A DNA stretch of 64,000 nucleotides from Muribaculaceae bacterium (GCA_017449785.1 JAFTFA010000190.1:12342-76341), one strand, 5' to 3'; counted from the stretch's first letter, positions 3,001 to 44,677 are shown. The notes: generated from the sequence alone by a model not told the origin. Program-made: numbers and translations.

Positions 3001-3081
3001 GCCGCTGGCCAGGGTATCAGCAACATGTTTGACGAATTGAGCTGGAACCGTGTTTCCATCTGCGAAATCATCGTGAAGTAA
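1..3081 (+). CDS. SusC/RagA-family TonB-dependent outer-membrane transporter, 5'-truncated by the window edge, carrying a C-terminal coiled-coil + OmpA-like extension
   Basis: Frame 1 is open from base 1. AAALYGARGANGVVMITTKKG is the plug-domain motif. There is a long beta-barrel body, and the terminal strand TYTVGFELNF ends at 2526. The ORF then continues for 184 codons to the stop at 3079-3081. Confidence 0.9.
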   Translation, partial: AAALYGARGANGVVMITTKKGVEGRSNVMWRSTFGWSSRATKRYDHVDQKEYVQLVYEALRNQAIDNGRSWKDAEAFARASLSSQLGGEQYNPFKNYTWDQIIDPATGYVREDAKSAWNEDWYDSVIRNNAFRHEHQLQVTGGSEHAQYMMSLGYLNEDGILKTTNYERYTGRANINSQITDWLAANINASLAHAMQNFNDYDDTSTSNPWYTAQFINPLLPVYLKDIDGKNLLDSDNNLQYDWGEVMENGTRPGSMSDFSSLGMLMLDKAWAKRDVAGLRTGLVLGSDLAKYGWRQGLKLAANFSMDYQSINNTRYMNAEHGNQANAGGLMEKYNRRIQSYTFNQLLTWDRTFGEHTIGLLLGHEWYAYEYSYLLAGKTNLVEGIYELRPGTTLYEADSYSDKYRIDSWLGRANYNYGGRYFLSASLRQDKSSRFHPDHNKGTFWSVGANWRISGEKFMKNVGWINNLSVKASYGEQGNDMLTTYYAWQSLYDLSYSNATNIGALISSLENENVSWEKSQNFNAGFDAILFNHRLQLNVDFYNRLTKNMLLNRPMALSTGFSGFMDNVGDMRNRGVEASLRITPVRTADFEWNITAMATHNRNKVIRLTKEAPELLSGVRIIKEGMPIYTYYMPKSAGVDPTTGYSLYWAYEKDEDGNMIEGTEYVTMDRDLAANCKYYQGSRQADIFGSLGTDFTWKGLTLSVLTTYSLGGKVFDSLYQSDMNLWYLSSTWNKNMMRRWQKPGDITDVPRASIAESINNTDRFLIDASYFAIKNITLAYALPMSWISKLGMTGARIFGSVDNLALWTHLNGMDPQYNFSGGTNYDYSPNRTYTVGFELNFGKSYATAAPAVNVNLLNNQINDLRAQLADAQNAAADANSRLAQLQGDLDAANRALANCRNDLNAAKNAAPKVVDNSKQYMNILVHFPKSGTAITADQRANVERVATYLKSHPEATCTIKGYASPEGKEEVNVKLANGRAASVKDMLVKKYGIAANRINAAGQGISNMFDELSWNRVSICEIIVK
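2527..3078 (+). other. In-frame C-terminal extension of the SusC-like protein: Q/N/A/L-rich heptad-like segment followed by an OmpA_C-like domain
   Basis: LLNNQINDLRAQLADAQNAAADANSRLAQLQGDLDAANRALANC, then IKGYASPEG..N..LANGRAASVKDMLVKKYGI..NRI.AAGQG....NRV. This matches the OmpA-family pattern G-x-[TA]-[DS]..G....N..LS..RA..V...L. Confidence 0.7.
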
Positions 3082-3219
3082 GGATTAATCAAGTTTTTAG
3101 TTTTAAGTTTCTTAGTTTTAAACGGGATATTACCTTTATTGATAATTCAATTCCAGGCAATACCAGACTGTACTTAAAACTTACAACTTAAAACTTACAA
3201 CTAAAACAATAGAACAAAC

Positions 3220-4785
3220 ATGAAAAAGCTTTTAAAATATTTGTTTATTGGAATGTGCGGCGTGCTCTGCCTCTCCTCATGCTCCAATGATCTGCTGGAG
3301 ACCGAGCCCACCGACTCCATGTCGGGTTCGACCTTCATGAGCGATGCCACCAAGGCTCTCGTGCCCCTGAACGGTATCTACCGCTCGATGTACTCTGCCG
3401 GCTGGTCCACCACCGGCAATACCCACCAGTGCTTCGGTATCAGTGCCTATAACCTGATGGCCGAGGTCATGGGCGATGACATGATCATGGGTGCCCAGGG
3501 TAGTGGCTGGTTCTGGTTTGATGCTGCCTACAATGTAAAGGCTCGTTACACCAGTGGCGCATGGCGCAGCTATGACCTGTGGACAGCTTACTACACTTGG
3601 ATTTCCAATGCCAACTACATCATCGCTGCCGAGGAGACCATGGAGGGCGCCAAGGAGGATGTGAACTACGTCATCGGTCAGGCCTATGCCATCCGTGCCT
3701 ACAGCTACTTCATGCTGGCACAGACCTTTGCCCGCACCTACAAGGGCCACGAGAATGACCTCTGTGTGCCCATCTACAATGAGCCCACCCGCACCACGAC
3801 CACCGGTCAGCCCCGTGCAAAGGTATCGGAGGTCTATGCCCAGATCGACAACGACATCAACAAGTCCGTCGAGCTGCTGGCCACCTCGCCCGCTCAGCGT
3901 CACCCCAGCCACATCAGCTATGCAGTGGCTCTGGGTCTCAAGTCCCGCATCGCCCTCGTCGAGGAGAAGTGGCAGGATGCCCTCGATGCCGCCAGCCAGG
4001 CTATCACTGCCAGCGGCAAGGCCGTCCAGGCTATTGACGCTTCGACTTTCGCTCCCAGCAAGAGCAACTTTATCAACACCGCTGATGCCGCTAACGTGAT
4101 GTGGGGTGCTCAGATCGTCAGCGACCAGGCCGGTATGTACGCTTCGTTGATGACCCACATGAGCGGTACTGCTCCCTACGGCCAGCGTGCTCCCAAGCGG
4201 ATCACTCCGTGGCTCTACGGCAAGATGAGCGAGACCGACAGCCGCCGTGCATGGTGGAATCCTGCTCAGAGCTATCTCCAGAAGAAGTTTGAGTTCTCCA
4301 ATGAGCAGACTTGGGAAGGTGACTACGTCTGGATGCGTGTCGAGGAGATGTACCTCAACGCTGCCGAGGCTGCTTGCCGCCTGGGTCAGGATGCCAACGC
4401 CAAGCAGTATCTCATGGCTGTCATGAGCAAGCGTGATGCCAACTACAGCACCAACAAGAGCGGCAACGCCCTGGCAACTGTCTCGACCGAGCTGACCGGT
4501 TCGCTGCTTGAGGAGATCTTGATCCAGCGTCGTATCGAGCTGTGGGGCGAGGATGGCCGCATCTACACCCTCCGTCGTCTGCATCAGGGCTTCGTGCGTC
4601 CTGCCGATTATGGCTGGCCCGAGGGTCTGCAGATTCCCACTCACGTCAATGCTGCTAAGGATCCCGAGAGCTATCTGTGGGTACTCACTATCCCCCAGGC
4701 CGAGTTTGACGGCAACGTCAACATGAAGCCCGAGGAGATTCCCGCTGGTGATCAGAACCCCATCGGTGACTATCCCAAAAACTAA
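3220..4785 (+). CDS. SusD/RagB-family nutrient-binding outer-membrane lipoprotein
   Basis: Lipoprotein signal MKKLLKYLFIGMCGVLCLSSCSNDLL. 521 aa, immediately downstream of the SusC-like gene. SusD-like C-terminal region (EEILIQRRIELWGEDGRIYTLRR). Confidence 0.9.
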   Translation: MKKLLKYLFIGMCGVLCLSSCSNDLLETEPTDSMSGSTFMSDATKALVPLNGIYRSMYSAGWSTTGNTHQCFGISAYNLMAEVMGDDMIMGAQGSGWFWFDAAYNVKARYTSGAWRSYDLWTAYYTWISNANYIIAAEETMEGAKEDVNYVIGQAYAIRAYSYFMLAQTFARTYKGHENDLCVPIYNEPTRTTTTGQPRAKVSEVYAQIDNDINKSVELLATSPAQRHPSHISYAVALGLKSRIALVEEKWQDALDAASQAITASGKAVQAIDASTFAPSKSNFINTADAANVMWGAQIVSDQAGMYASLMTHMSGTAPYGQRAPKRITPWLYGKMSETDSRRAWWNPAQSYLQKKFEFSNEQTWEGDYVWMRVEEMYLNAAEAACRLGQDANAKQYLMAVMSKRDANYSTNKSGNALATVSTELTGSLLEEILIQRRIELWGEDGRIYTLRRLHQGFVRPADYGWPEGLQIPTHVNAAKDPESYLWVLTIPQAEFDGNVNMKPEEIPAGDQNPIGDYPKN

Positions 4786-27601: not shown

Positions 27602-28054
27602 ATGATAGAATTTTTCACATCCAACCTCTGGCTCATCTGGGTTATCATTTCGATCGTGTGCCTTATTCTGGAATTATCCTCGGGTGACTTCTTCATCCTG
27701 TGCTTTGCCATCGGAGCTGCCGCCAGTGCCATCATCGCCGGATGCGGAGCCAGTCTCACGTGGCAGATCATCATCTTTGCCGTCGTCTCGGCATTGAGCT
27801 TGCTGCTGGTAAGACCCGCATTGATCAAGAAACTGCACAAGCCGCACCGCGAACGCCTGAGCAACGCCGAGGCCATGATTGGCAAGGAAGGCCGTGTCAG
27901 CGAGCCCATCGTGGCCAATGGTTATGGCCGCGTGGCCGTCGACGGCGATGACTGGAAGGCCCTCAGTGCCGACGGCAGTGCCATTGACAAGGACACCCGC
28001 GTGCGCATCGTCAAGATGGACAGCATCATCGTCACCGTCGAGCCCCTCGCCTGA
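27602..28054 (+). CDS. NfeD-family membrane protein
   Basis: N-terminal TM helices plus a C-terminal OB-like GKEGRVSEPIVANGYGRVAVDGDDWKALS...VRIVKMDSIIVTVEP. Paired with the downstream SPFH gene. Confidence 0.8.
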   Translation: MIEFFTSNLWLIWVIISIVCLILELSSGDFFILCFAIGAAASAIIAGCGASLTWQIIIFAVVSALSLLLVRPALIKKLHKPHRERLSNAEAMIGKEGRVSEPIVANGYGRVAVDGDDWKALSADGSAIDKDTRVRIVKMDSIIVTVEPLA

Positions 28055-28101
28055 CGCTCCTCCCTAACAACTTACAACTAAAAACTTAAAACTAAAATAT
28101 T

Positions 28102-33231: not shown

Positions 33232-35211
33232 TTACTGGATGTAGCCGAAGTACTCGTCATCGGTAGCGCAATCCCACCATACGGGGAGGCTCCAGATGTA
33301 GTTCTGGTTAGCATTCTTGTTCACCAGGAGAGCCTGAGTCTCATTGTAAGTCAACTCGAGGGTTCCCGGCAGACGCCAGCGGCGGGGCCAGTACTGTACA
33401 TCATTCTTGCTGCTACCCGGCAGAACAGACTGGCCGGTGAACATTGCGGGATGATCCATGCCAGGATAAACCACGCCAAAGCCACCCACGTTTCCAGCGC
33501 TGTAGTTGAAGCGGCGCATATCGACATAGGTCTCGGAGCAGCAGCCCAGGGCCACATACTTCTGCAGCATGATGTCGCTCATGGTGAGCTCACTGGCATT
33601 CTGGCAAACAGCAGCACTGTTCATGTAGGCAGTGATCTTGGCGCTGTCCATGGGACGGAGGATATAATTGATATAACCAGCGCCCTGGTAGTCGTTGGCC
33701 TGAGCCTGCATGTCGTCGATGTTGGCCTGGATACCTGCCTTGTATGCGGCAAGTGCACCAGCCTTGTCACCCTTGCGGAAGAGCACCTCGGCCTTGATGA
33801 AGCAGCACTCGCTGTAGGTCATCAGGTCAAACGGGCTCATGGGCTGTACCTGGAAGGTACCGGTCGAGCTTGCACCAGCGTCGCGGGCGGTGGTGAGCTG
33901 GAAGTGCCAGTAGGTGTCCAGGGGGTTGTGGGCGTTACCGGTGAGGGTAGCGTTGGCACGCAGGTTGACATAGACGGTGTCGCCAGCAACAATGTAGTTG
34001 GTGCTGTTGACATAGAGCGAACCGGGAGCATAGGTCACGGTGACATCCTCACCATCGACCTTGACAGCGTGGTTGATAGCAGCCCCGGCAGCAAACCTGG
34101 TGCGGGCAGCCTCGTCCTTGATGTTGTAGGTCAAATCCTTGCTCACGTTGGTCCAGGTGGGAGCACTGATCGAGAATGCACCACCGGCGTGCAGACGTCC
34201 GTTGGCATCGTTGATGATGTCAACAGGCTGCGAGCGCATCCAGGTGTAGTCGGCCACGTTGCCATTGGCATCGAGCCTCATGTTGGTCATGACCCAGGGG
34301 ATGTTCTTGTCGGCACGGGGATCCTCAACGCCGGCGCCACGCATGTTGGTCAGCAGGTCGTAGTGATACTTCGACATGCGCTGGGCGCTACCATAGGCCA
34401 GGTAGTTCCAGTTACCGTTGGTCATCACGGGGTCACCCATGAGGTAGTCGGTAACATCGCTGCCCGAGTTGTAGCAGGTGAATGCAAGGTTGTCGTTGTT
34501 GTTCTGCGGACCCTTGGCCAGGCAGTCAAGGATAGCGTCGGGATTGAATTCAGCCTTCTTGGAGATGCGCAGCAGGTAGCGGGCCTTCAAGCCATAGGCG
34601 AGCTTGAGCCACTTCTGCACATCGCCGCCGGCGATGTCACCGCTGCTCAGGGGCACAGCCGTGGCCGACTGCGGAGTCTGCAGCAGCTCGATAGCGCGGT
34701 CGATTCTTGCCAGGCAGCCCTCATAGATGGTCTTGCCATTGTCATAGGCAGGAACAGCCGATGCACCCAGGGCCTCGGTATAAGGCATCTCGCCATACAG
34801 GTCAAGCATGTCCATGAAGCCGTAGGCATAGATGAGCTCGGCAACGCCCTCATAGTGGGTAGCGCCGTCCTTGCCGGCCTTCTCGATGATGTCGGGCAGG
34901 TTGGCTGCGCAGCCTACAAACCAGCTCTGGTAGGGCGTGGTCGTCGAACCGGCACCAAACTCCCAGTCGGGGCAACCCAGGCTACCGGTTGTAGAATAGA
35001 AGACACCGATGTTGCACGATGTGCGCATGTTTACAATGCCATGCTCATACATGAACCAGCGCTCAATCCACGGGAGGCGGTTCTCGACCAGCGCGCTCTT
35101 GTTGTTAGGGCTGTCGGGGTCGGTATTCACATCGAGCCAGTCGTTACAGGATGCCAAGCTGAGCGAAGCAGCAAAGCATGCCAGTGCGATGAAATATTTT
35201 GAAATTTTCAT
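33232..35211 (-). CDS. SusD/RagB-family lipoprotein
   Basis: MKISKYFIALACFAASLSLASCNDWLDVNTDPDSPN. 659 aa. Starts 20 nt downstream of its SusC partner. Confidence 0.9.
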   Translation of the reverse strand: MKISKYFIALACFAASLSLASCNDWLDVNTDPDSPNNKSALVENRLPWIERWFMYEHGIVNMRTSCNIGVFYSTTGSLGCPDWEFGAGSTTTPYQSWFVGCAANLPDIIEKAGKDGATHYEGVAELIYAYGFMDMLDLYGEMPYTEALGASAVPAYDNGKTIYEGCLARIDRAIELLQTPQSATAVPLSSGDIAGGDVQKWLKLAYGLKARYLLRISKKAEFNPDAILDCLAKGPQNNNDNLAFTCYNSGSDVTDYLMGDPVMTNGNWNYLAYGSAQRMSKYHYDLLTNMRGAGVEDPRADKNIPWVMTNMRLDANGNVADYTWMRSQPVDIINDANGRLHAGGAFSISAPTWTNVSKDLTYNIKDEAARTRFAAGAAINHAVKVDGEDVTVTYAPGSLYVNSTNYIVAGDTVYVNLRANATLTGNAHNPLDTYWHFQLTTARDAGASSTGTFQVQPMSPFDLMTYSECCFIKAEVLFRKGDKAGALAAYKAGIQANIDDMQAQANDYQGAGYINYILRPMDSAKITAYMNSAAVCQNASELTMSDIMLQKYVALGCCSETYVDMRRFNYSAGNVGGFGVVYPGMDHPAMFTGQSVLPGSSKNDVQYWPRRWRLPGTLELTYNETQALLVNKNANQNYIWSLPVWWDCATDDEYFGYIQ

Positions 35212-35231
35212 AGTCTGAGATCATTAATTAG

Positions 35232-38200
35232 TTAGAACGTAACATTTACACCAAATGTGAAGCTGGAAACGGCGGGAACGCTGTTCCAGTCGATACCCAC
35301 GGCACCAGAACCGCCAGTACCGCCAGCGGTGCTGACTTCAGGATCCATACCCTTGTAGTTGGTCCAGGTGAACAGGTTAGTGCCCGTGACATTCAGGGCA
35401 AGACGCTTAACCACCTTCTGCTTGTTGGCAATCAGACGGGTCAGGTCATAGGTGAGCGAGAGCGAGCGCAGCTTCAACCAGTTGACATCGGTGATGAAGT
35501 TGTAGCTGTTGCTGGCATAGTTGCTCCAGTAGCGCTGGATCATGTTGCGGCCCGAATAGGTCGTACCGTTGATGACATATTCCTGGTCGGCATAGTAGGT
35601 CTGCTCGAAGTCCTCACCGGTATTCCATACCTTACCCTTAACGGTAACCGACTCACGGTTGTTGAGGGTGGTGAGCTTGCTCAGACCGTTGGTAACCAGG
35701 CTGTACTCGGTACCGTTGTAAACGGCACCGCCAATGCGGAAGTCGAGCAGGAACGACAAGGTGAAGTCCTTAATGCGGAAGATGTTGTTCAGACCGCCGA
35801 TGAACTTGGGCTCACGGTTGGCGACAACCTCGTTGCTCGATGAATACAGATAGTACAGACCAGTGGTGGGGTCAACAGCATAGACGCCCGACTCCTTATC
35901 CTCGACGGGGGTCTTGCCGGCGTCATCCGAGAATACTACCTGGCCATCCTCCATCAACGGAGCATACTGGAAGCGAGAACCTACCATTGCCATGAACTTG
36001 CCACCGTTGGGCACCGAAGCCGAGCGGATGGTACCGAACTGGGCATCGGTCGGGTAGAACATACCCACGCCGTCCAGGAAGTCACCCAGCTTGCCGCGGT
36101 TGTAGGACATGTTCAGGATCACGTCCCAGTCAAAGTCGGCCGTCTGGATAGGACGGGCGTTGATGGCGATTTCCATACCCTGGTTGATAACCGAACCCGA
36201 GTTGATCGATGCGAAGATGTAACCGTTGGCGTTGGACAGACGCGGTGATGCAATCTGGTTCTTGGTAGAGCTGTGGTAGTAGGTCCAGTCAAGACCCAAG
36301 CGGTTGTTGAGGAAACGCAGCTCGGCACCGATTTCCCATGCGGTCTGGATCTCGGGCTTGAGGAACATGTTACCCTGGTAGTACTGGTTACCCACGCCCT
36401 GGAACTGGCCGTAAACCATCGGGTTGTTAAGGTAGGTCAGGGTTGCATACACGTTGGCATCCTTACCAACCTGGGCCCACGATGCGCGCAGCTTACCGAA
36501 TGACAGGATGTCGTTGTGAGGCATGAGCTCGGTGAAGACAAACGAGCCGCTCACCGAGGGATAGAAGTAGCTGCGCTCGTTGACGGGCAGCGTCGAGGAC
36601 CAGTCGTTGCGGCCGGTCACGGTCAGGAACACCATGTTGCGCCAGCTGGCACGGGCCTCACCGAAGACGCTCACCATGCGCTTGCGGCTGTTGCTGTCCT
36701 TGAAGAACTGGTTGTCGTCGGACATGTTGCTGAAGCTGATGGTGCCGGCGGTGATGAAGTTGTAGCCCCAGTGGTTCTGGTTCATGCGCTTGGTGTCGTC
36801 GGTGCTGGTACCCAGCATCAAGCCCAGATCCCAGTCGCCGAAGGTGTTGTGCCAGTCACTCATGATGTTGGTCGACAGGTACTCATAGCGGTAGTCGGCC
36901 TTGCTCAGACGACCGTTCTGGTAGAGCTCACGTGCTACCGATCCGGGAGCGATGTAGGTGTAGGCATCGGTGGTGTAGTTGTCATAGCCCATACGGCCGC
37001 TCACAGTCCACCAGTTGGCGATCTCAAACGACGCGTTCACAGCACCGGTAAAGCGCTGGGTCTTGTCGTAGATGTTGTTCATGTTGATGATCCAGTAGGG
37101 ATTCTCCTTATCATCGGCGAGAGACCAGATGCCGTCAAACAGGCGATACTTGCTGCCATCCTCGTTGAGATAGTGAGAAACGTCCTGGTCCAGAGGCCAA
37201 GAATACAGCGCGTTCATGGCACCGGTGCCCACAGGCGACTGCGAGCCTTCCCACAAGCCACCCGAGGTCAGGGTCTTGTTGGTCTTGGCGATGCTGTAGG
37301 TAACGTTGGCACCCACGGTCAAGCGATTGTACTTCTGCTCACCGTTGAAGCGAACCGTCGTCTTGTCATACTTGGTCTTGGGCACGATACCCTTCTGGTC
37401 ATAGTTGGAGAGCGACAGGTAGAAGGTCGAGTTGTTCGAGCCGCCGCTGATGCTCACGTTGTTGTCAAAGATGGTACCATTCTGGAAGAAGTTACCGATG
37501 TTGTCATAGATGGTCTCGCCGGTCTCGGCAAAGGGACGTCCCCATGAGCTGTAGGTCTGGTCATTGTAGGCACCATTGGTCGTGTAGGTACCGCGGCCAA
37601 ACTGCTTCTGCACCTCGGGCAGCTTGTTGGCCCATGAGGTGCTCACCTTGCCCGTGTAGTCCACACGAACGGTGCCCTGGGCACCCTTCTTGGTGGTGAT
37701 GATGATGGCACCGTCGGCAGCGCGGCTACCATACAGGGCGGCAGCGGCTGCACCCTTCAGTACCGAGAGGCTCTCGATATCCTCGGGGTTGATATCCATC
37801 ACACGGTTGGAGAAGGTGGTGGCATTGCGGGTGATACCGTCCTGGCCCGAGTTACCGAGCACCGTCGTCGAGTTGTCATAGATGATACCATCCACAACAA
37901 ACAGCGGGGTGTTGTCGCGACCCTCACTGGTCGAGTTGGCACCACGGATGATGATGCTGGCACCGGCACCGGCGGCACCACTGTTCTGGGTAACGTTCAC
38001 ACCGGGAACCTTACCTGCCAGCGAGTTGATGACGTTGGTGTTCTTGTTGCGCATCAGCTCCTCGCTCTTGAGGTCGGTCACATTGTAACCCAGCGCCTTG
38101 CGCTCCTTCTTGATACCGAGGGCGGTTACTACCACCTCATCGAGCAACTGGTTGCCCGACTCGTAGTTGATGTCCATCGTGTCGTTGCCCACGGTGACCT

Positions 38201-38486
38201 CAATGGGCTTGCTGCCCACATAGGAAACAACGAGGACGTCACCACGATTGGCGATGATTGAATACCTGCCGTCGACATCGGTAGCGGTACCGCGGTTGGT
38301 ACCCTTGACCTTGACGGTCGCGCCGATGAGGGGCTCACCTTGGGCGTCACGTATGACGCCAGTAACTTTGTTGGCTTGGGCAACGGCGGTGAAACCCGTG
38401 TTGGGCATGAACGAGTCCATCCCTACGGGTGCGCCACCGGCGATTGCCAGCGCGGCCAACAGTGCTAATTGTTTTTTCATACGCAC
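35232..38486 (-). CDS. SusC/RagA-family TonB-dependent transporter (canonical architecture)
   Basis: Carboxypeptidase-regulatory-like N-terminus (VTGVIRDAQGEPLIGATVKVKGTNRGTATDVDGRYS) and plug (LYGSRAADGAIIITTKKG). Ends on the terminal strand ...SSFTFGVNVTF followed by a stop. Confidence 0.95.
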   Translation of the reverse strand: MRMKKQLALLAALAIAGGAPVGMDSFMPNTGFTAVAQANKVTGVIRDAQGEPLIGATVKVKGTNRGTATDVDGRYSIIANRGDVLVVSYVGSKPIEVTVGNDTMDINYESGNQLLDEVVVTALGIKKERKALGYNVTDLKSEELMRNKNTNVINSLAGKVPGVNVTQNSGAAGAGASIIIRGANSTSEGRDNTPLFVVDGIIYDNSTTVLGNSGQDGITRNATTFSNRVMDINPEDIESLSVLKGAAAAALYGSRAADGAIIITTKKGAQGTVRVDYTGKVSTSWANKLPEVQKQFGRGTYTTNGAYNDQTYSSWGRPFAETGETIYDNIGNFFQNGTIFDNNVSISGGSNNSTFYLSLSNYDQKGIVPKTKYDKTTVRFNGEQKYNRLTVGANVTYSIAKTNKTLTSGGLWEGSQSPVGTGAMNALYSWPLDQDVSHYLNEDGSKYRLFDGIWSLADDKENPYWIINMNNIYDKTQRFTGAVNASFEIANWWTVSGRMGYDNYTTDAYTYIAPGSVARELYQNGRLSKADYRYEYLSTNIMSDWHNTFGDWDLGLMLGTSTDDTKRMNQNHWGYNFITAGTISFSNMSDDNQFFKDSNSRKRMVSVFGEARASWRNMVFLTVTGRNDWSSTLPVNERSYFYPSVSGSFVFTELMPHNDILSFGKLRASWAQVGKDANVYATLTYLNNPMVYGQFQGVGNQYYQGNMFLKPEIQTAWEIGAELRFLNNRLGLDWTYYHSSTKNQIASPRLSNANGYIFASINSGSVINQGMEIAINARPIQTADFDWDVILNMSYNRGKLGDFLDGVGMFYPTDAQFGTIRSASVPNGGKFMAMVGSRFQYAPLMEDGQVVFSDDAGKTPVEDKESGVYAVDPTTGLYYLYSSSNEVVANREPKFIGGLNNIFRIKDFTLSFLLDFRIGGAVYNGTEYSLVTNGLSKLTTLNNRESVTVKGKVWNTGEDFEQTYYADQEYVINGTTYSGRNMIQRYWSNYASNSYNFITDVNWLKLRSLSLTYDLTRLIANKQKVVKRLALNVTGTNLFTWTNYKGMDPEVSTAGGTGGSGAVGIDWNSVPAVSSFTFGVNVTF

Positions 38487-38922: not shown

Positions 38923-41900
38923 ATGAAAAGACATTTAGCTCTTTTGGGCGCAATGATGATGCTGTGCGGTACTGGGTACCAGGCACAAGCTACACCTGCG
39001 CCCCAGGTGACGGCCAATGCCGCCACCGGCATTGTGACAGGCCGCGTTGTCGATGAGCAGGGAGAACCCGTCATCGGCGCCAGCATTGTCGAGGTTGGAA
39101 CGACCCGTGGCACATCGACCGATGTGAATGGTAACTTCTCGTTGCGGGCAGGCACCAATGCCAAGCTCCAGATTTCGTTTATCGGCTACAAGACGGTGAC
39201 CACCCGCGCCACAGCGGGCATGAACGTCGTCATGGCCGAGGATAAGGCCTTGCTTGACGAGGTCGTTGTAGTGGGCTACGGCACCCAGAAGAAGGTGAAC
39301 CTCACCGGTGCCGTGTCGACCGTGGATGTCGATAAGACCTTCAATTCACGTCCCGAGCAGGATGTGTCGCGCGCCTTGCAGGGTGCTGTTCCTGGCCTGA
39401 GCATTATCAACGCCAGCGGTGACATCGATGGCAATCCCACGATGCGCATCCGCGGCGTGGGCACGCTGAGCAACAACCAGAACACCTCGCCCATGATCGT
39501 CATCGACGGTGTCGTGAGCGACATGGACGGACTGCAGCTGCTCAACGGCAACGATATCGCCTCGGTTTCGGTACTCAAGGACGCCGCCTCGTCGTCGATC
39601 TATGGTACCCGTGCTGCATTTGGTGTGCTGTTGATTACCACCAAGAGTGGCCAGAAGGGCGAGCATGCCTCGGTGACCTACTCTAACAACTTCGGTTGGG
39701 ACGATCCCACCTACCTGCCCGACTATCCTGATGTCCCCACCCAGTTGAAGTCTGCCATCATGGCCAAGAAGCGTGAGGGCTCGGACGCTGTCGAGCTCTT
39801 CGGTATGTACTTCGACCAGTTGCTGCCCTATGCCGAGGCATGGCAGAAGCAGAATGGCGGCAAGAAGATCGGTTATGGCGTGATGCGCCCCTGGGTGAGC
39901 GACGGTGACGTGGGTGACTACCGCTTCATCGGCAGCCAGCCCATGTACTATGCCGACTATGACATCCAGAACATCTGGTACAACCATGCCGCTCCCTCTC
40001 AGGGCCACAACGTGTCGGTGCGCGGTGCCAGCAACCGCACCACCTATTATCTGTCCTTTGGTTACAACTACAAGGAGGATAACATGAAGTGGAATCCCGC
40101 TATGCGTAAGCGCTACAACGCTGCTGCCAACATCTCGACCGACTTGACCGACTGGTTGACCGTTGGTACCCGCATCAACTTCTCGCGCCGCCACTTCTCG
40201 CGTGCCGATACCTGGAACAACATGTACCAGTACATCTGGCGCTGGGGCTCGTTCTTTATCCCCAGCGGCACGATTGCCGATCCCACCACGGGTGAGCAGC
40301 TCGACTTCCGCGTGATCGCCATGCAGAAGCAGGCCGCCCGCAAGAACGTGACCATGGATCGCCTGAGCATGACCGCCTTCACCACCGTGCACATCACCAA
40401 GGACCTGACCTTGAATGCCGACTTCACCTATGAGATCGGTAACATGAACAGCGGTTCGAGTGACCACACCGTTTACGGCTACAACTGGAGCGGTGTCACC
40501 CCGCAGTGGATTGTCAACGACGGCAACACCAACGCCTGGCGCGACAACAGCAAGAGCAACAAGTGGGCTGCCAACGCAACCCTGAACTGGAACAAGAGCT
40601 TCAATGATGCCCACAACTTCAACATCATGGTGGGTGTCAATGGCGACAACTACACCAGCGACTACTTCTATGCCTACAAGCCCCAGCTCTATAGCGAGGC
40701 TTATCCCGAGATGGCGCTGGCCTATGGCGACCAGACCAAGTGGAACATCAACAGCAGCACCTACGACAAGGCTACTGCCGGCTACTTTGGCCGCATCAAC
40801 TATGACTACAAGGGCATCTACCTGCTCGAGTTGAATGGCCGTTACGACGGCTCGTCGAGCTTCCCCGTGAATGACCATTGGGCATTCTTCCCCTCGGGTT
40901 CGGTGGGCTACCGCTTCACTCAGGAGAAGTATTGGGACCGCCTGCGCCACATCGTGGATAACGGTAAGCTGCGTTTCTCTTACGGTACCATCGGAAACGA
41001 GGCCGTCGGCGAGAACCAGTTCCAGTCGCTCATCAGCCCCATTTCTCAGAGCTACATTTACTGGCTTAACGAGAATGGTGCCAAGGTGACCGAGCTGGGT
41101 CTCCCCAGCTGGGTGAACTCCTCACTGACCTGGGAGCGCATCACCACCATGGACGCAGGTATCGACCTGGGCCTGTTTGGTGACGTGCTCACGATGGGCT
41201 TTGACTGGTACCAGCGCACGACCAGCGACATGCTCGGTCCTGGTACCGCACTGCCTCCCGCTGTGGGTGCCGCCGCTCCTGTGACCAACAATGGTGAGCT
41301 GCGCACACGCGGTTGGGAAGCCACTCTGGACCTGCGCAAGCAGTTCAACAAGGACTTCGGCGCCTACTTCAGTGCCAGCGTTGGTGACGCTAAGACCAAG
41401 GTGACCAAGTGGAACAACGACTCTCACCTGATCGGCTATCCTTGCAACAGTGCCTATGCCTATGAGGGCATGACCTGGGGTGACATCTGGGGCTTTGAGA
41501 CCGACCGCTACTTCACCGAGCGTGACTTCAACGGCAAGAACGCCGACGGTTCATGGAACTATGCTCCCGGCGTTGCCGATCAGACCGGCATCCAGACCCA
41601 AACCTTCGTCTTTGGCCCTGGTGACATCAAGTACAAGGACCTGGACAACAATGGTGTGATCGACGGTGGCAAGGGCACTCAGGAGGATCATGGTGACCTC
41701 AAGGTTATCGGTAACATGATGCCCCGCTATGAGTACAGCTTCCACGTTGGTGGTAACTTCAAGGGCTTTGACCTGGATGTATTCTTCCAGGGTGTGGGCA
41801 AGCGTGAGATGTGGACCCAGTCAGCCTTTGTATTCCCGATGATGCGTTCGGCCGACTTGGCTATCTTTGCCAACCAGACCAAGTACAATATCTATGATCC

Positions 41901-42840
41901 CGAGAATGGCGTTGTCAACATCAGCGAGGATAACGACTTCCCGTGCCTGTTCCCCGGCAACGAGTATGCCGGTAACGTGGTAGGTCTCTCGGGTGAAGGC
42001 GGCTGCCACAACTACTATCCCCAGACCAAGTATCTCGTTGACATGAGCTACCTGCGCCTCAAGAACATCACGCTGGGTTACACCCTGCCCGAGAACTTGA
42101 CCCGCAAGGCCTTTATTGAGAAACTGCGTGTTTACGGTAGTGTGAACAACCTGTGCCTGCTGCACAAGGGCAGCGGTGACCTCCCCATCGATCCCGAGAT
42201 GAACGCCGGACAGGGCTCTCTGGGTTACGGTACTTGGGGCCGCACCTATCCCATCAACCGCACCTGGTCTGTAGGTCTGCAAGTGACCTTCGGTACCAAC
42301 CGCAGTGCTGCCGTAGCCGTTACTGGCGACAACAGCGCCTTGAACGCTCAGATCAACGCCCTGCGCTCACAGCTCGCCGATGTCGAGAACAGCTACAATG
42401 CCCGCATCGCCGACCTGCAGAACCAGCTCAACGCAGCCAACAACCGCAACGCTCAGCTCCAGAAGGACCTCAACGACTGCCAGAAGAGCAAGAGCGGCAT
42501 GATCGACAAGTCGCTGCAGTACATGACCATCCTGGTTCACTTCCCCGTGAACAAGACTGCCGTGAGCGCCGACCAGCAGCCCAACGTGGAGCGCATCGCC
42601 GCTTACATGAAGAGCCATCCCGAGGCCAGCTGCACCATCAACGGCTATGCCTCCAAGGACGGCCCCGCCGACCACAATATCAAGCTCGCTGAGGGCCGTG
42701 CCGCCAGCGTGAAGGATATGCTCGTTAAGAAGTATGGCATCGACGCCAAGCGCATCAACGCACAGGGCCAGGGCATCAGCAACATGTTTGATGAACTGAG
42801 CTGGAACCGCGTTTCTATCTGCGAGATCATCGTGAAGTAA
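38923..42840 (+). CDS. SusC/RagA-family TonB-dependent transporter with a C-terminal coiled-coil + OmpA-like extension (1305 aa)
   Basis: Signal peptide MKRHLALLGAMMMLCGTGYQAQA. CarbopepD-like domain and plug (IYGTRAAFGVLLITTKSG). The barrel ends ...WSVGLQVTF at 42291 and 182 more codons follow. The ATG at 38923 is preferred over the ORF-track start at 38761. Confidence 0.9.
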   Translation: MKRHLALLGAMMMLCGTGYQAQATPAPQVTANAATGIVTGRVVDEQGEPVIGASIVEVGTTRGTSTDVNGNFSLRAGTNAKLQISFIGYKTVTTRATAGMNVVMAEDKALLDEVVVVGYGTQKKVNLTGAVSTVDVDKTFNSRPEQDVSRALQGAVPGLSIINASGDIDGNPTMRIRGVGTLSNNQNTSPMIVIDGVVSDMDGLQLLNGNDIASVSVLKDAASSSIYGTRAAFGVLLITTKSGQKGEHASVTYSNNFGWDDPTYLPDYPDVPTQLKSAIMAKKREGSDAVELFGMYFDQLLPYAEAWQKQNGGKKIGYGVMRPWVSDGDVGDYRFIGSQPMYYADYDIQNIWYNHAAPSQGHNVSVRGASNRTTYYLSFGYNYKEDNMKWNPAMRKRYNAAANISTDLTDWLTVGTRINFSRRHFSRADTWNNMYQYIWRWGSFFIPSGTIADPTTGEQLDFRVIAMQKQAARKNVTMDRLSMTAFTTVHITKDLTLNADFTYEIGNMNSGSSDHTVYGYNWSGVTPQWIVNDGNTNAWRDNSKSNKWAANATLNWNKSFNDAHNFNIMVGVNGDNYTSDYFYAYKPQLYSEAYPEMALAYGDQTKWNINSSTYDKATAGYFGRINYDYKGIYLLELNGRYDGSSSFPVNDHWAFFPSGSVGYRFTQEKYWDRLRHIVDNGKLRFSYGTIGNEAVGENQFQSLISPISQSYIYWLNENGAKVTELGLPSWVNSSLTWERITTMDAGIDLGLFGDVLTMGFDWYQRTTSDMLGPGTALPPAVGAAAPVTNNGELRTRGWEATLDLRKQFNKDFGAYFSASVGDAKTKVTKWNNDSHLIGYPCNSAYAYEGMTWGDIWGFETDRYFTERDFNGKNADGSWNYAPGVADQTGIQTQTFVFGPGDIKYKDLDNNGVIDGGKGTQEDHGDLKVIGNMMPRYEYSFHVGGNFKGFDLDVFFQGVGKREMWTQSAFVFPMMRSADLAIFANQTKYNIYDPENGVVNISEDNDFPCLFPGNEYAGNVVGLSGEGGCHNYYPQTKYLVDMSYLRLKNITLGYTLPENLTRKAFIEKLRVYGSVNNLCLLHKGSGDLPIDPEMNAGQGSLGYGTWGRTYPINRTWSVGLQVTFGTNRSAAVAVTGDNSALNAQINALRSQLADVENSYNARIADLQNQLNAANNRNAQLQKDLNDCQKSKSGMIDKSLQYMTILVHFPVNKTAVSADQQPNVERIAAYMKSHPEASCTINGYASKDGPADHNIKLAEGRAASVKDMLVKKYGIDAKRINAQGQGISNMFDELSWNRVSICEIIVK
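42292..42837 (+). other. In-frame C-terminal extension: coiled-coil-like segment + OmpA_C-like domain
   Basis: ALNAQINALRSQLADVENSYNARIADLQNQLNAANNRNAQLQKDLNDC, then INGYASKDGPADHNIKLAEGRAASVKDMLVKKYGIDAKRINAQGQG...NRV. Confidence 0.7.
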
Positions 42841-42964
42841 GGTTAAACTGAGTTTTAAGTTGTAAGTTTTAAGTTGTAAGTAATATTACCGAATGACGAT
42901 ACAGTTACAGGCGATACAAACCATACTTAAAACTAACAACTAACAACTAAAAACTTAAAAAAAT

Positions 42965-44677
42965 ATGAAATTATTGAAATCAATTATACTGTGTGGACTG
43001 GGTGCTGCTGTTATCTCGCTGTCGTCTTGTGACGACATGCTCACCAAGAGCGAACGCACCAAGTTTGAGCTCGGACCTGAGTTCTGGAGCAATGCCAATC
43101 AGGTCGCCAGCTATAGCAATGTCCTGTATGAGAACTATACTGGATATGGAACAGGTGGTGGCGCTGGCTGGTTCTATTTCAAGAGTTTGAGCGACGACCA
43201 GGTGAATCCCAGCTTTGATAACTGGATGTTCACCACGGTTCCCGGCACCTCGACCTACTGGAGCACGCCTTATACCGAGATTCGCCGCTGCAACTATATG
43301 TTGACCGGCTTGCAGAGCTCGACCCTCGCTGAGGGCGAGAAGAGCTATTATGTAGCTGTTGGCCGCTTGAATCGCGCCTGGCAGTACTATCAGCTCGTGC
43401 GCATGTACGGTGATGTCAACATGCTCGATGAGGTCATCCTTGATCCCGAGGCTCAGAGCGATGTTGTCTATGGTCCCCGCACCGACCGTGACGTGGTCAT
43501 GGACTTCGTGCTCGAGGATCTGAACTATGCTGTTCAGAACCTGGGTGCCGGCGGCAAGAATTCCTGGAGCAAGGATATGGCCCTGGCCATGAAGAGCGAC
43601 ATCTGCCTGTTTGAGGGTACCTATTGCAAGTACCGCACTGTTGAGGACAACGGCAAGGCTGCCGATGCTACCCGTGCCCAGAAGTTCCTCAATGAGTGCG
43701 TTGATGCCTCGCAGCAGCTGATGAACTCGGGCAAGTACAGCCTTACCGCCAACTATGGCGAGGTCTATAACTCGCTCGACCTGAGCAAGAGCAGTGAGGT
43801 CATCTTCTTCCGCAACTACGTGAAGGATCAGCTCATGCACTCGACTGCCGACTATACAGCATCGTCGTCACAGCAGCGCGGTATCAGCAAGGACGCTGTC
43901 GATGCCTTCCTCTTCCTGGATGGCAAGCCCCTGGCAACCACTGCCTATAACACCGATGATCATCCCGTGCTCGATCCGTCGAACAATGCCTACAGCATCC
44001 AGAGCATGCTGTCGCGCCGCGACAAGCGCCTGAGCGTGCTGCTCGATCCGTATCTGTGCTTCAAGGGTCATGGTTGGGTGCGTTCCAACTCCATGCTCAT
44101 GACGTCATCTACTGGCTACAACATCGCCAAGTATGACAACACGGCTATGGAAGTGGATTACCGCATCAACACCGGCAAGAACTATACCGACGCTCCCATC
44201 TATTGGCTGGCAGTCATCTATCTGAACTACGCCGAGGCTAAGGCCGAGTTGGGCACCATCAACCAGACTGATCTGGATGCCAGTGTCAACAAGCTGCAGG
44301 CCCGCGCCGGTCTGCCCGCTATGAGCTTGACACCTGCTGCCGACCCCGCCAACAATATGGGTGTTAGCGACCTGTTGTGGGAAATCCGCCGTACGCGCCG
44401 CTGCGAGCTCATGGCCGACAACTGGTACCGTTATTGGGACCTCGTTCGCTGGCACAAGCTTGACCTCCTCGACTCACAGGCTCATCCCAACATCAACCGC
44501 GGTGCCTTCCTGGCTGGTGTGGCCGACCTGGACGAGACCTTCAACCTGGATGCAGATGGCTATGTGATCCCCGTGAGCACACTGCGCACCTTCGACAAGA
44601 AGTATTACCTGTGCCCCATTCCCAGCAACCAGATCACGCTGAGCAAGGGTGCCACAAGTCAGAATCCTGGCTGGTAA
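42965..44677 (+). CDS. SusD/RagB-family lipoprotein
   Basis: MKLLKSIILCGLGAAVISLSSCDD lipobox. 570 aa. SusD-like C-terminus (LLWEIRRTRRCELMADNWYRYWDLVRW). Confidence 0.9.
   Translation: MKLLKSIILCGLGAAVISLSSCDDMLTKSERTKFELGPEFWSNANQVASYSNVLYENYTGYGTGGGAGWFYFKSLSDDQVNPSFDNWMFTTVPGTSTYWSTPYTEIRRCNYMLTGLQSSTLAEGEKSYYVAVGRLNRAWQYYQLVRMYGDVNMLDEVILDPEAQSDVVYGPRTDRDVVMDFVLEDLNYAVQNLGAGGKNSWSKDMALAMKSDICLFEGTYCKYRTVEDNGKAADATRAQKFLNECVDASQQLMNSGKYSLTANYGEVYNSLDLSKSSEVIFFRNYVKDQLMHSTADYTASSSQQRGISKDAVDAFLFLDGKPLATTAYNTDDHPVLDPSNNAYSIQSMLSRRDKRLSVLLDPYLCFKGHGWVRSNSMLMTSSTGYNIAKYDNTAMEVDYRINTGKNYTDAPIYWLAVIYLNYAEAKAELGTINQTDLDASVNKLQARAGLPAMSLTPAADPANNMGVSDLLWEIRRTRRCELMADNWYRYWDLVRWHKLDLLDSQAHPNINRGAFLAGVADLDETFNLDADGYVIPVSTLRTFDKKYYLCPIPSNQITLSKGATSQNPGW

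What the first reader, a model, noticed from the sequence alone, without database searches (positions are those of the whole stretch)
38923..42840. SusC-like TonB-dependent transporter fused in frame to a periplasmic coiled-coil + OmpA-like peptidoglycan-binding module
The 22-strand barrel should end on a terminal aromatic residue. It does so in the neighbouring canonical SusC (35232-38486), which ends ...FGVNVTF followed by a stop.

Here the equivalent strand, ...WSVGLQVTF, is internal and ends at 42291. The ORF then continues for 182 aa. The first ~50 aa form a Q/N/A/L heptad-like segment (ALNAQINALRSQLADVENSYNARIADLQNQLNAANNRNAQLQKDLNDC). An OmpA_C-like domain follows (INGYASKDG..N.KLAEGRAASVKDMLVKKYGI..RI.AQGQG....NRV).

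The C-terminus of a TBDT is periplasmic, so the fusion is topologically sensible. A ~50-residue coil is roughly the right length to reach the peptidoglycan layer.

Hypothesis (inference): the module anchors the SusCD machine to peptidoglycan and/or zips the known SusC2D2 dimer through a parallel coiled coil. The conserved Cys at the end of the coil could allow a disulfide. I do not know of a characterised SusC with this architecture.
Basis: partly seen in the sequence, partly recalled or inferred. Interest (0 to 1): 0.78.

Follow-up and report, generated by a model that had tools for sequence, protein, structure and literature searches.

The report
SusC transporter carrying an OmpA tail
A nutrient-import barrel (SusC) of an uncultured rumen Muribaculaceae bacterium has the whole periplasmic stalk and cell-wall-binding domain of the bacterium's OmpA-type protein fused to its end, a real and conserved but uncharacterised design that probably ties the transporter to the cell wall.

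Summary
ORF 38923-42840 (+) encodes a 1305-aa protein. Residues 38-1123 are a complete SusC/RagA transporter (TIGR04056, 800 bits) ending on the usual terminal Phe. A 182-aa tail follows: a 13-residue linker, a 53-residue heptad helix with a core Cys, and an OmpA_C domain (PF00691; TM 0.83 to A. baumannii OmpA-C).

It is not a mis-join. The exact protein is public (MBQ9576942.1), and its 90% cluster holds 358 sequences. About 63 of 79 loci from 40 species-level genomes keep a 1227-1320-aa ORF.

The tail is homologous to the entire periplasmic part of the ~390-aa Bacteroidales OmpA proteins (the Pgm6/7 type, reported to be trimeric). It sits on at least five SusC lineages whose barrels are only 25-30% identical, while the tails are 64-79% identical. 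Orthologues of two of these barrels at 63-79% identity lack the tail. So the module spread among pre-existing transporters, together with a conserved AT-rich hairpin spacer before susD. Coil and OmpA domain are under purifying selection (dN/dS 0.15-0.20).

The likely function is non-covalent peptidoglycan tethering plus coil-driven oligomerisation. This is inferred, not shown. I rate it a new variant of known kinds: interesting, but confined to one uncultured rumen clade.

The parts
38923..42840 (+). Complete SusC-OmpA fusion gene (1305 aa plus stop), barrel class A
   Evidence: Continuous ORF. TIGR04056 at 800 bits and PF00691 at 49.7 bits. The identical protein is MBQ9576942.1, in a cluster of 358 members.
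38923..38991 (+). Predicted signal peptide (MKRHLALLGAMMMLCGTGYQAQA)
   Evidence: Read directly from the sequence. Orthologues start in the same way. The cleavage site was not tested.
39034..39270 (+). N-terminal CarboxypepD_reg-like domain typical of SusC proteins
   Evidence: PF13715 at 63.5 bits, residues 38-116.
39256..39282 (+). TonB-box-like motif DEVVVVGYG
   Evidence: Present in the sequence. Calling it a TonB box rests on general knowledge of SusC proteins and was not tested here.
39295..42291 (+). Plug (residues 125-235) and 22-strand barrel, ending on terminal Phe1123
   Evidence: PF07715 and PF00593 match, and TIGR04056 matches end to end up to residue 1123. Tail-less orthologues stop exactly at this Phe.
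42292..42330 (+). Flexible linker GTNRSAAVAVTGD
   Evidence: pLDDT is below 50 for tail residues 1-10. dN/dS is 0.57.
42331..42489 (+). 53-residue heptad-repeat helix (coiled-coil stalk) with one stutter. It contains an 11-residue insertion (ADVENSYNARI) relative to most canonical OmpAs.
   Evidence: AF2 helix across tail residues 14-66, with block-mean pLDDT 95-97 over residues 21-60 and lower values at both ends. Heptad register and invariant core positions. Alignment to OmpA stalks. dN/dS is 0.20.
42478..42480 (+). Conserved Cys at a core 'd' position near the end of the coil
   Evidence: Invariant in 20 of 20 subtype-1 tails. Most canonical OmpAs have Cys in the same column. In subtype-2 tails the Cys lies one heptad earlier.
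42517..42837 (+). OmpA_C-like peptidoglycan-binding domain
   Evidence: PF00691. AF2 fold beta-alpha-beta-alpha-beta-beta. Foldseek TM 0.83 to 3td3, 0.82 to 5u1h and 0.92 to 9uu2. dN/dS is 0.15.
42841..42964 (+). AT-rich heptamer-repeat spacer forming a long hairpin between the fusion's stop codon and the susD start codon. It always accompanies the tail.
   Evidence: MFE -26.7 kcal/mol, z -3.8. Homologous in all five barrel classes, with 70% column identity, 22 consensus pairs and 2 compensatory pairs. Absent from the tail-less orthologous loci examined.
42965..44677 (+). Cognate SusD-family lipoprotein gene
   Evidence: PF07980 at 105 bits and PF14322.
40..3081 (+). Second SusC-OmpA fusion (barrel class D), cut by the window start. 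The body ends at 2526 (...GFELNF) and the tail is 2527-3078 (184 aa).
   Evidence: tblastn of the tail gives 64% identity. PF00691 matches. Coordinates. Full-length orthologues are 1216-1238 aa.
3082..3219 (+). Homologous AT-rich hairpin spacer following the second fusion
3220..4785 (+). SusD-family gene paired with the second fusion
   Evidence: PF14322 and PF07980.
33232..38486 (-). Comparator: a canonical tail-less susC (35232-38486) and a SusD-like gene (33232-35211), separated by a 20-nt spacer and divergent from the fusion gene
   Evidence: TIGR04056 matches to the last residue. The protein ends ...FGVNVTF followed by a stop. It is 46-49% identical to class C fusion bodies.

Best explanation
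This is a lineage-specific domain fusion. The complete periplasmic module of the Bacteroidales major OmpA-type protein has been grafted onto the terminal Phe of a fully functional-looking SusC TonB-dependent transporter. That module is a coiled-coil stalk with a core Cys followed by an OmpA_C peptidoglycan-binding domain.

Shown: both halves are identified. The fusion is intact in many independent genomes. The tail is homologous to OmpA from the start of the coil to the C-terminus. Coil and OmpA domain are under purifying selection. The same tail, with a companion hairpin spacer, sits on at least five SusC lineages, while close orthologues of two of them lack it.

[quoted passage not shown] The ~8-nm helix spans the gap between outer membrane and cell wall, and the OmpA_C domain binds peptidoglycan non-covalently. 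The SusCD transporter thereby becomes an outer-membrane-to-cell-wall tether that is fixed in place.

Also inferred: the coil oligomerises the tails, as a dimer or trimer, possibly locked by the core Cys. Partners could be copies of the same SusC, other tailed SusC paralogues, or OmpA itself. This would cluster transporters at the wall, in the way the separate protein RmpM clusters TBDTs in Neisseria.
For: Domain identity.

The fusion is real and conserved.

The tail is homologous to the whole periplasmic part of ~390-440-aa OmpAs. These have a signal peptide, a small barrel ending AGxTYHF, a coil with Cys in the same column, and an OmpA_C domain ending SWNRVSIC. Identity is 45-60%. The barrel-to-domain spacer is similar in both: 81-83 residues in the fusions against 73-88 in canonical OmpAs.

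Purifying selection: dN/dS is 0.20 for the coil, 0.15 for the OmpA domain and 0.57 for the linker. Tail length is fixed at 181-186 aa in 69 fusions.

Module spread: between barrel classes the bodies are 25-30% identical, the tails 64-79% and the OmpA domains 77-88%. Among orthologues the tail evolves slightly faster than the body. Tail-less orthologues exist at 63-79% identity for class A and 67-70% for class D, and they end on the terminal Phe.

Precedents from the literature: RmpM, an OmpA_C protein, complexes with TBDTs and promotes their oligomers (PMC8497027, citing Prinz and Tommassen 2000). Trimeric autotransporters carry a coiled coil plus an OmpA or SLH domain directly after the barrel (bioRxiv 10.64898/2026.01.22.700529). 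Pgm6/7 OmpA-like proteins form trimers and maintain the outer membrane (PMC6112661, PMC6327258).
Against: There is no biochemical evidence of any kind. The organism is uncultured.

The canonical DAP-binding Asp (A. baumannii OmpA D271) is Ser here. An acidic residue two positions later may substitute for it, but that is a guess.

The oligomeric state is unknown. Asn at an 'a' position and Leu at 'd' positions suggest a dimer, whereas the Pgm6/7 precedent suggests a trimer.

The flexible linker and hinge mean the stalk cannot act as a rigid brace.

I could not take a global census of TBDT-OmpA fusions, so independent occurrences elsewhere are neither shown nor excluded.
Confidence: 0.6

Rival explanations
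1. The tail is a biogenesis or stability module. Its main role would be to stabilise the protein, or to guide its insertion and localisation by BAM, rather than to tether the membrane. Periplasmic coiled-coil extensions of trimeric autotransporters behave this way: removing them leads to degradation.
For: In Veillonella, deleting the C-terminal periplasmic coiled coil or SLH domain of TAAs caused protein loss or mislocalisation (bioRxiv 10.64898/2026.01.22.700529). Coil and domain are both under purifying selection, which fits any essential role.
Against: Orthologous SusC barrels at 63-79% identity function without any tail, so the barrel does not intrinsically need it. The OmpA_C domain is the most conserved part, which argues for a ligand-binding role.
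Confidence: 0.15
2. The tail is a co-assembly handle for OmpA. Its coil would form mixed oligomers with the cell's own OmpA stalks, or with other tailed SusC paralogues. This would build hetero-complexes whose purpose is outer-membrane organisation, or retention of transporters in the cell envelope rather than their loss into vesicles.
For: The coil is homologous to OmpA stalks and shares the Cys column. Pgm6/7 form heterotrimers (PMC6112661). Tails of different paralogues within one genome stay 64-83% identical although the barrels are 25-30% identical. Two coil subtypes exist and are occasionally swapped between barrel classes, in L035, L036 and L037.
Against: The coils carry 11- or 14-residue insertions relative to most OmpAs, which would put hetero-coils out of register. 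The closest canonical OmpA (P0095) lacks the coil Cys. There is no interaction evidence.
Confidence: 0.15
3. It is an artefact or a neutral read-through. Two genes (susC and an ompA-like gene) would have been joined by an assembly error or by recent loss of a stop codon, with no function for the fusion.
For: Many database entries for the tail are short 'OmpA-like' proteins. Two long contigs show a separate OmpA ORF directly after a truncated susC.
Against: Those short entries begin inside the last SusC strands. The two long-contig cases are frameshifted fusions, with a ~10-nt deletion in L001. Intact fusions exist in about 63 loci of 40 species genomes and in hundreds of protein clusters. dN/dS is 0.15-0.22. 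No tail has a signal peptide or start codon of its own.
Confidence: 0.01

Closest known systems
SusC/RagA-family TonB-dependent transporters (solved examples: 8aa4, 5t3r/6zm1 B. thetaiotaomicron SusC homologues, 6sli RagA)
   Same: Residues 1-1123 are an ordinary member. They have the N-terminal CarboxypepD_reg-like domain, a TonB-box-like motif, the plug, the barrel, the TIGR04057 signature and a downstream susD.
   Different: All solved SusC and RagA chains (~900-1040 aa), and the nearest orthologues, end at the barrel's terminal aromatic residue. This protein continues for 182 aa into the periplasm.
Bacteroidales major OmpA-like proteins (~390-440 aa; P. gingivalis Pgm6/Pgm7 type)
   Same: The tail aligns with their whole periplasmic part: the coil starting (D)ALNxQINxLRxQL, the Cys near the coil end, and the OmpA_C domain with GYAS-x-[DE]-G, RAxxV and a SWNRVSIC end. 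Identity is 45-60%. These proteins are reported to be trimeric and to stabilise the outer membrane (PMC6112661, PMC6327258).
   Different: The small N-terminal barrel is replaced by a 22-strand TonB-dependent transporter. The coil is 11-14 residues longer and the linker is shorter. There is an extra, fusion-specific Cys in strand beta-2 (ATCTINGYAS).
Neisseria RmpM (class 4 protein) with TbpA, LbpA and FrpB
   Same: An OmpA_C peptidoglycan-binding domain is physically coupled to TonB-dependent transporters. RmpM promotes TBDT oligomers and supports lactoferrin-dependent growth (PMC8497027, citing Prinz and Tommassen 2000).
   Different: RmpM is a separate protein that binds non-covalently. Here the domain is covalently fused through a coiled coil. 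The organisms are from an unrelated phylum, and no sequence relationship beyond the OmpA_C fold was examined.
Trimeric autotransporter adhesins with C-terminal periplasmic extensions (Streptobacillus: coil plus OmpA; Negativicutes: coil plus SLH), and TpgA of Acinetobacter
   Same: The same modular order directly after an outer-membrane barrel: a coiled coil followed by a peptidoglycan-binding domain (bioRxiv 10.64898/2026.01.22.700529).
   Different: The barrel is a 12-strand trimeric autotransporter rather than a TBDT. The origin is independent, and the functions tested there were adhesin stability and localisation.
Braun's lipoprotein Lpp (from my own knowledge, not tested here)
   Same: A periplasmic coiled coil of ~55 residues that spans the distance between outer membrane and peptidoglycan.
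   Different: Lpp is a lipoprotein that is covalently linked to peptidoglycan. It is absent from Bacteroidota and has no OmpA_C domain.

Membership tests
SusC/RagA TonB-linked outer membrane protein (TIGR04056) | Full-length match to the family model above the curated cut-off | tested here: met
   800.5 bits against a cut-off of 368.25, residues 38-1123 over profile positions 3-981 of 981.
SusC/RagA TonB-linked outer membrane protein (TIGR04056) | SusC/RagA signature motif (TIGR04057) within the plug | tested here: met
   53.6 bits against a cut-off of 46.2, residues 211-241.
SusC/RagA TonB-linked outer membrane protein (TIGR04056) | Plug domain, TonB-dependent barrel and N-terminal CarboxypepD_reg-like domain | tested here: met
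   PF07715, PF00593 and PF13715 all score above their gathering thresholds.
SusC/RagA TonB-linked outer membrane protein (TIGR04056) | A susD-family lipoprotein gene immediately downstream | tested here: met
   42965-44677 matches PF07980 at 105 bits. The same holds for the second fusion, at 3220-4785.
SusC/RagA TonB-linked outer membrane protein (TIGR04056) | The polypeptide ends at the barrel's terminal aromatic residue | tested here: not met
   182 residues follow Phe1123. This is a typical feature rather than a formal criterion. It marks the protein as a variant, not a non-member.
SusC/RagA TonB-linked outer membrane protein (TIGR04056) | TonB-dependent uptake of a glycan or peptide substrate | not testable with these tools
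   No glycoside hydrolase lies directly next to either fusion pair. The substrate is unknown.
OmpA_C-like peptidoglycan-binding domain (PF00691) | Match to Pfam OmpA above the gathering score | tested here: met
   49.7 bits in the whole protein and 53.6 bits in the tail alone, against 27.2.
OmpA_C-like peptidoglycan-binding domain (PF00691) | Beta-alpha-beta-alpha-beta-beta fold superposable on solved OmpA_C and Pal domains | tested here: met
   AF2 mean pLDDT is 88. Foldseek gives TM 0.83 to 3td3, 0.82 to 5u1h, 0.92 to 9uu2 and 0.77 to Pal 1oap.
OmpA_C-like peptidoglycan-binding domain (PF00691) | Conserved Arg that binds the DAP carboxylate (A. baumannii OmpA R286, motif RAxxV) | tested here: met
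   The motif reads EGRAASV and the Arg is invariant in all alignments.
OmpA_C-like peptidoglycan-binding domain (PF00691) | Conserved Asp that binds the DAP amine (A. baumannii OmpA D271, motif G-H/Y-T-D) | tested here: not met
   It aligns with Ser in GYAS. The same holds across the related canonical Bacteroidales OmpAs, which always have S-x-[D/E]-G.
OmpA_C-like peptidoglycan-binding domain (PF00691) | Actual binding to peptidoglycan | not testable with these tools
   This needs a pull-down or co-sedimentation experiment.
Bacteroidales OmpA-like major outer membrane protein (Pgm6/7 type) | Small N-terminal beta-barrel ending AGxTYHF | tested here: not met
   It is replaced by the SusC barrel. 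The fusion is therefore not a member of this family, and only its tail derives from it.
Bacteroidales OmpA-like major outer membrane protein (Pgm6/7 type) | Periplasmic coil with a Cys, followed by an OmpA_C domain ending SWNRVSIC | tested here: met
   Alignment A3 shows 37-54% identity (junction-plus-tail query) over the whole periplasmic part. The representative search gives matches to query residues 13-180.
Bacteroidales OmpA-like major outer membrane protein (Pgm6/7 type) | Trimer formation | not testable with these tools
   It is reported for Pgm6/7 (PMC6112661, PMC6327258).

The most novel reading that the evidence does not exclude
The tails act as a shared docking system. Through compatible coiled coils, locked by the core Cys, different SusCD transporters and possibly OmpA itself would assemble into wall-anchored hetero-oligomeric platforms. 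These would fix nutrient importers at defined sites over the peptidoglycan, improve coupling to TonB, and keep the transporters out of outer-membrane vesicles. The module would be a portable cassette (tail plus hairpin spacer) that this rumen clade has pasted repeatedly behind pre-existing susC genes. That would be a new organising principle for TonB-dependent uptake and a natural example of modular re-engineering of outer-membrane proteins.
Probability: 0.2. Interest if true: 0.8.

Novelty: new variant of a known kind. Interest (0 to 1): 0.55.

Why it matters
TonB-dependent transporters are generally described as ending at the barrel, and any link to the cell wall is thought to come from separate proteins such as RmpM, Pal or OmpA. 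Here a whole clade of abundant rumen Bacteroidales has hard-wired a stalk and a cell-wall-binding domain onto several of its SusC importers and keeps them under selection.

If the tail does tether and oligomerise the transporter, four things follow:
- It provides a natural experiment on whether wall anchoring or clustering helps TonB-driven uptake.
- It shows how Bacteroidota, which lack Braun's lipoprotein, can add tethers between outer membrane and cell wall.
- It documents cassette-like spread of a periplasmic module among anciently diverged outer-membrane proteins.
- It flags an annotation problem. Public records name these proteins simply 'SusC/RagA family' and name their fragments 'OmpA-like peptidoglycan-associated protein'. 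That hides the architecture and inflates OmpA counts in rumen metagenomes.

Tried and rejected
1. Mis-join or frameshift artefact: rejected.

2. A stand-alone OmpA gene in relatives. The tail-only search returned only proteins of 113-313 aa. Their sequences start inside the last SusC strands. The long-contig cases are frameshifted fusions lying next to intact ones.

3. Ongoing gene conversion as the reason for tail similarity. Same-genome and different-genome tail identities are almost equal, for example B-C 81.7% against 78.9%. So homogenisation is at most weak, and the spread pre-dates the radiation of the clade.

4. Purifying selection alone as the reason for tail similarity. This is rejected because among orthologues the tail evolves faster than the body, and because tail-less orthologues exist.

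5. The hairpin spacer as the 3' UTR of the donor ompA. The nearest canonical ompA (L086) is followed by an unrelated GC-rich intrinsic terminator. The origin of the spacer is unexplained.

6. An Rfam family for the spacer: none. The mir-75 hit at E 0.75 is noise.

8. Global census of TBDT-OmpA fusions: not achievable. The 50% representative library shows no other long TBDT among the 150 best tail hits. It also fails to show the known fusions, so it is not informative on this point. The genome scan used tail-specific patterns.

9. The original Pgm6/7 trimer paper (PMC545718) is not held. My recollection that those trimers are disulfide-linked could not be verified.

10. Literature searches for a described SusC or TBDT with an OmpA tail found nothing.

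Full report
**1. The observation**

The ORF 38923-42840 (+) is continuous and encodes 1305 aa. NCBIfam TIGR04056 (SusC/RagA) matches residues 38-1123 over essentially the whole profile (positions 3-981 of 981) at 800.5 bits against a cut-off of 368. TIGR04057, Pfam Plug, TonB_dep_Rec_b-barrel and CarboxypepD_reg also match. The barrel ends on Phe1123 (codon 42289-42291), and 182 further residues follow.

Pfam OmpA (PF00691) matches residues 1207-1287 at 49.7 bits, and at 53.6 bits on the tail alone, against a gathering score of 27.2. The divergent neighbour 35232-38486 (-) is a canonical SusC that ends ...FGVNVTF followed by a stop. A SusD-family gene follows the fusion at 42965-44677.

**2. 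Not an artefact**

A search with the tail alone returned only short proteins of 113-313 aa. At first sight this suggests a separate gene in relatives. However, their sequences begin inside the last strands of SusC barrels and run straight through ...TF-G-linker-coil-OmpA. They are therefore fragments.

Two such hits lie on long contigs, directly after a truncated susC in another reading frame. In L001 a deletion of ~10 nt within the last strand creates the stop. The same contigs carry intact fusions of 1244 and 1284 aa.

A scan of one genome per species (GTDB) found 120 matches, of which 79 loci were kept. All come from uncultured Bacteroidales MAGs, mostly from ruminant gut, labelled Muribaculaceae, Sodaliphilus or 'Prevotellaceae RUG'. 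The ORF holding the tail is 1227-1320 aa in about 63 loci. It runs off the contig edge while still open in 13 more. Only L033, L066 and L072 are exceptions.

The window's exact protein is public as MBQ9576942.1, named 'SusC/RagA family TonB-linked outer membrane protein [Muribaculaceae bacterium]'. Its 90% cluster has 358 members, including many 1305-1306-aa copies from independent assemblies.

The window also contains a second fusion. It enters at the window start and ends at 3081. Its body ends ...GFELNF at 2526 and its 184-aa tail is 2527-3078, at 64% identity to the first tail. It too is followed by a SusD gene.

**3. Anatomy of the tail**

AlphaFold2, run with a 68-sequence alignment, gives mean pLDDT 88. 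The model has:
- a disordered linker (tail residues 1-13);
- one continuous helix (14-66, 53 residues);
- a short hinge (67-75);
- a beta-alpha-beta-alpha-beta-beta domain (76-181).

Foldseek places the domain with peptidoglycan-binding OmpA_C domains. TM-scores are 0.83 to A. baumannii OmpA-C (3td3), 0.82 to OprF-C (5u1h) and 0.92 to 9uu2, followed by Pal, PorE and others.

The helix has a clean heptad pattern with one stutter. The core positions are L17(d), I21(a), L24(d), L28(a), V/A31(d), Y35(a), then the stutter, then I/L39(a), L42(d), L46(a), A49(d), N53(a), L56(d), L60(a), C63(d). They are invariant or nearly so in 20 same-length relatives. In the second coil subtype the Cys lies one heptad earlier.

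In the OmpA domain, the Arg of RAxxV is invariant. The canonical DAP-binding Asp of A. baumannii OmpA (D271) aligns with Ser in GYAS. An acidic residue always follows two positions later.

**4. Where the tail came from**

An exhaustive HMMER search of 1.84 billion representatives shows what the tail's best non-fragment relatives are. They are proteins of ~370-440 aa in which the match lies at the C-terminus and includes the coil (query residues ~13-180, 45-60% identity).

These proteins have a signal peptide and a small barrel ending ...AGxTYHF. They then carry the same '(D)ALNxQINxLRxQL' coil with a Cys in the same column, and an OmpA_C domain ending SWNRVSIC. This is the architecture of the Bacteroidales major OmpA-like proteins. 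The P. gingivalis members Pgm6/7 are reported to form heterotrimers or homotrimers and to maintain the outer membrane (PMC6112661 and PMC6327258, citing Nagano et al. 2005, which I could not read).

The SusC tail is thus the complete periplasmic module of such an OmpA. Relative to most canonical OmpAs, the fused coils carry an 11-residue insertion (ADVENSYNARI in this gene) or a 14-residue one (second fusion). The linker is shorter. As a result, the number of residues between barrel and OmpA domain is similar: 81-83 in the fusions against 73-88 in canonical OmpAs.

**5. How it spread**

The 69 full fusions fall into at least five barrel classes, defined by their last strand:
- A: WSVGLQVTF (this gene);
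- A': YSVGLQLTF;
- B: YSVGLSVTF;
- C: YALGINLTF and similar;
- D: YTVGIELNF (the second window fusion).

Tail length is always 181-186 aa. Between classes the bodies are 25-30% identical, but the tails are 64-79% identical and the OmpA domains 77-88%. Within a class, across species, the tail is slightly less conserved than the body (class A: 88% against 95%). Selection alone therefore cannot explain the similarity of the tails.

Orthologues of the class A body at 63-79% identity are 1081-1142 aa and end exactly at ...GLQ(L/V)TF. Some are labelled Sodaliphilus, Muribaculaceae or Prevotella. Only the two closest homologues (93% and 83%) carry PF00691. Class D shows the same pattern. About 100 clusters of 1216-1238-aa fusions lie at 67-95% identity, followed by tail-less 1044-aa orthologues at 67-70% that end ...GLEVNF.

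At least two old SusC lineages therefore received the same tail after they had diverged. Occasional mosaics point to recombination: L037 has an A' barrel with coil subtype 2, and L035 and L036 have C barrels with subtype 1.

Tails of paralogues in the same genome are barely more alike than those in different genomes. So the spread pre-dates the radiation of these ~40 species and is not being strongly homogenised now.

dN/dS is 0.15-0.22 for tails overall. By region it is 0.20 for the coil, 0.15 for the OmpA domain and 0.57 for the linker. For the barrels it is 0.06-0.17. Coil and domain are maintained by selection.

**6. A companion element**

Each fusion is followed by an AT-rich spacer of ~90-140 nt (21-37% GC in a 57% GC genome) built of heptamer repeats. 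These fold into a long hairpin. For 42841-42964 the MFE is -26.7 kcal/mol with z -3.8.

The spacers are homologous across all five barrel classes. Column identity is 70%, with 22 consensus pairs, two of which show AU-to-CG compensation. No Rfam family matches.

The tail-less orthologous loci are syntenic but have spacers of only 55 and 23 nt without the element. The inserted unit therefore looks like a cassette: linker, coil, OmpA_C, stop codon and hairpin.

The nearest canonical ompA (L086) is followed by an unrelated GC-rich terminator, so the origin of the hairpin is unexplained. Its right arm resembles an A/C-rich leader that also precedes the SPFH gene at 28102, where no left arm is present.

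**7. Mechanism**

Shown: the identity of both halves; the integrity, conservation and selection of the fusion; its origin from OmpA; and its modular spread.

From established knowledge: both ends of a 22-strand barrel are periplasmic. OmpA itself proves that a barrel's last strand can be internal and be followed by a periplasmic domain. OmpA_C domains bind peptidoglycan non-covalently.

Inferred: the ~8-nm stalk places the OmpA_C domain at the wall, so the SusCD transporter is tethered. The coil oligomerises the tails, possibly locked by the core Cys. Whether this gives a dimer (which would fit SusC2D2, Asn at 'a' and Leu at 'd') or a trimer (as in Pgm6/7) is open. I could not model oligomers.

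Functional precedents are Neisseria RmpM and certain trimeric autotransporters. RmpM complexes with TBDTs and promotes their oligomers (PMC8497027). The autotransporters carry a coiled coil plus an OmpA or SLH domain directly after the barrel, and removing that extension destabilises the protein (bioRxiv 10.64898/2026.01.22.700529).

Rival explanations are a stability or biogenesis role, co-assembly with OmpA, and an artefact. The artefact is refuted.

**8. Novelty and verdict**

Both components are textbook domains. The order barrel, coil, peptidoglycan-binding domain is known for OmpA and for some autotransporters. I found no description of this order on a SusC or any TonB-dependent transporter. 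Public annotation calls these proteins plain SusC/RagA.

The fusion is common within one uncultured rumen Muribaculaceae-like clade: at least 40 species, up to four or more paralogues per genome, and hundreds of protein clusters. It is absent from the closest orthologues outside that clade.

I could not take a global census, so independent fusions elsewhere are neither shown nor excluded. I classify it as a new variant of known kinds, of moderate to good interest. The function is inferred, and the experiments needed to test it are straightforward.

Noticed in passing
window 42841-42964 and 3082-3219 (also L004-L082, directly after each fusion's stop codon): An AT-rich heptamer-repeat spacer forms a long conserved hairpin between the fusion's stop codon and the susD start codon. 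It is homologous across all barrel classes and absent from the tail-less orthologous loci examined. It matches no Rfam family and differs from the 3' end of the nearest canonical ompA. It may couple or regulate susD translation.
   Followed up: partly
window 28055-28101: The same A/C-rich heptamer leader (CTAACAACTTACAACTAAAAACTTAAAACTAAAATATT) lies between an NfeD gene (27602-28054) and an SPFH/Band 7 gene (28102-29067), here without a complementary arm. This suggests a common translation leader for downstream operon genes in this organism.
   Followed up: partly
window 17320-19116 (-) and 19414-22254 (-): Two M6 (InhA-like) metallopeptidases carry C-terminal type I dockerin domains in a Bacteroidales genome. 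Dockerin proteins also lie next to the tail-less SusC orthologues and next to the canonical ompA (L083, L084, L086). Dockerins are therefore a recurrent feature of this rumen clade.
   Followed up: no
window 55078-57654 (-): One 858-aa protein combines CelD_N, a GH9 cellulase and a polysaccharide deacetylase (CE4) domain.
   Followed up: no
window 48852-53042 (-): A 1396-aa protein whose only Pfam match is a C-terminal DUF6383. It is otherwise unannotated.
   Followed up: no
window 45771-47456 (+) and 47554-48606 (+): Two adjacent genes each have a PRK/uridine-kinase-family domain. The first is 561 aa, with a long unannotated N-terminal part.
   Followed up: no
L001 5990-6001 and L003 6001-6032: Some paralogous fusions in other MAGs are interrupted by a frameshift or deletion exactly in or near the last barrel strand. 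This produces a truncated SusC plus an 'OmpA' ORF. They may be pseudogenes or assembly errors, and they are a source of misleading 'OmpA-like protein' annotations.
   Followed up: partly
tails of all fusions, e.g. window 42613-42615 (Cys in ...EASCTINGYAS): A Cys in strand beta-2 of the OmpA domain is invariant in the fusions but is Val, Ile or Leu in the canonical OmpAs compared. Together with the family-wide Cys in ...VSICE, it could form an intradomain disulfide, which would leave the coil Cys free for an intermolecular bond.
   Followed up: no
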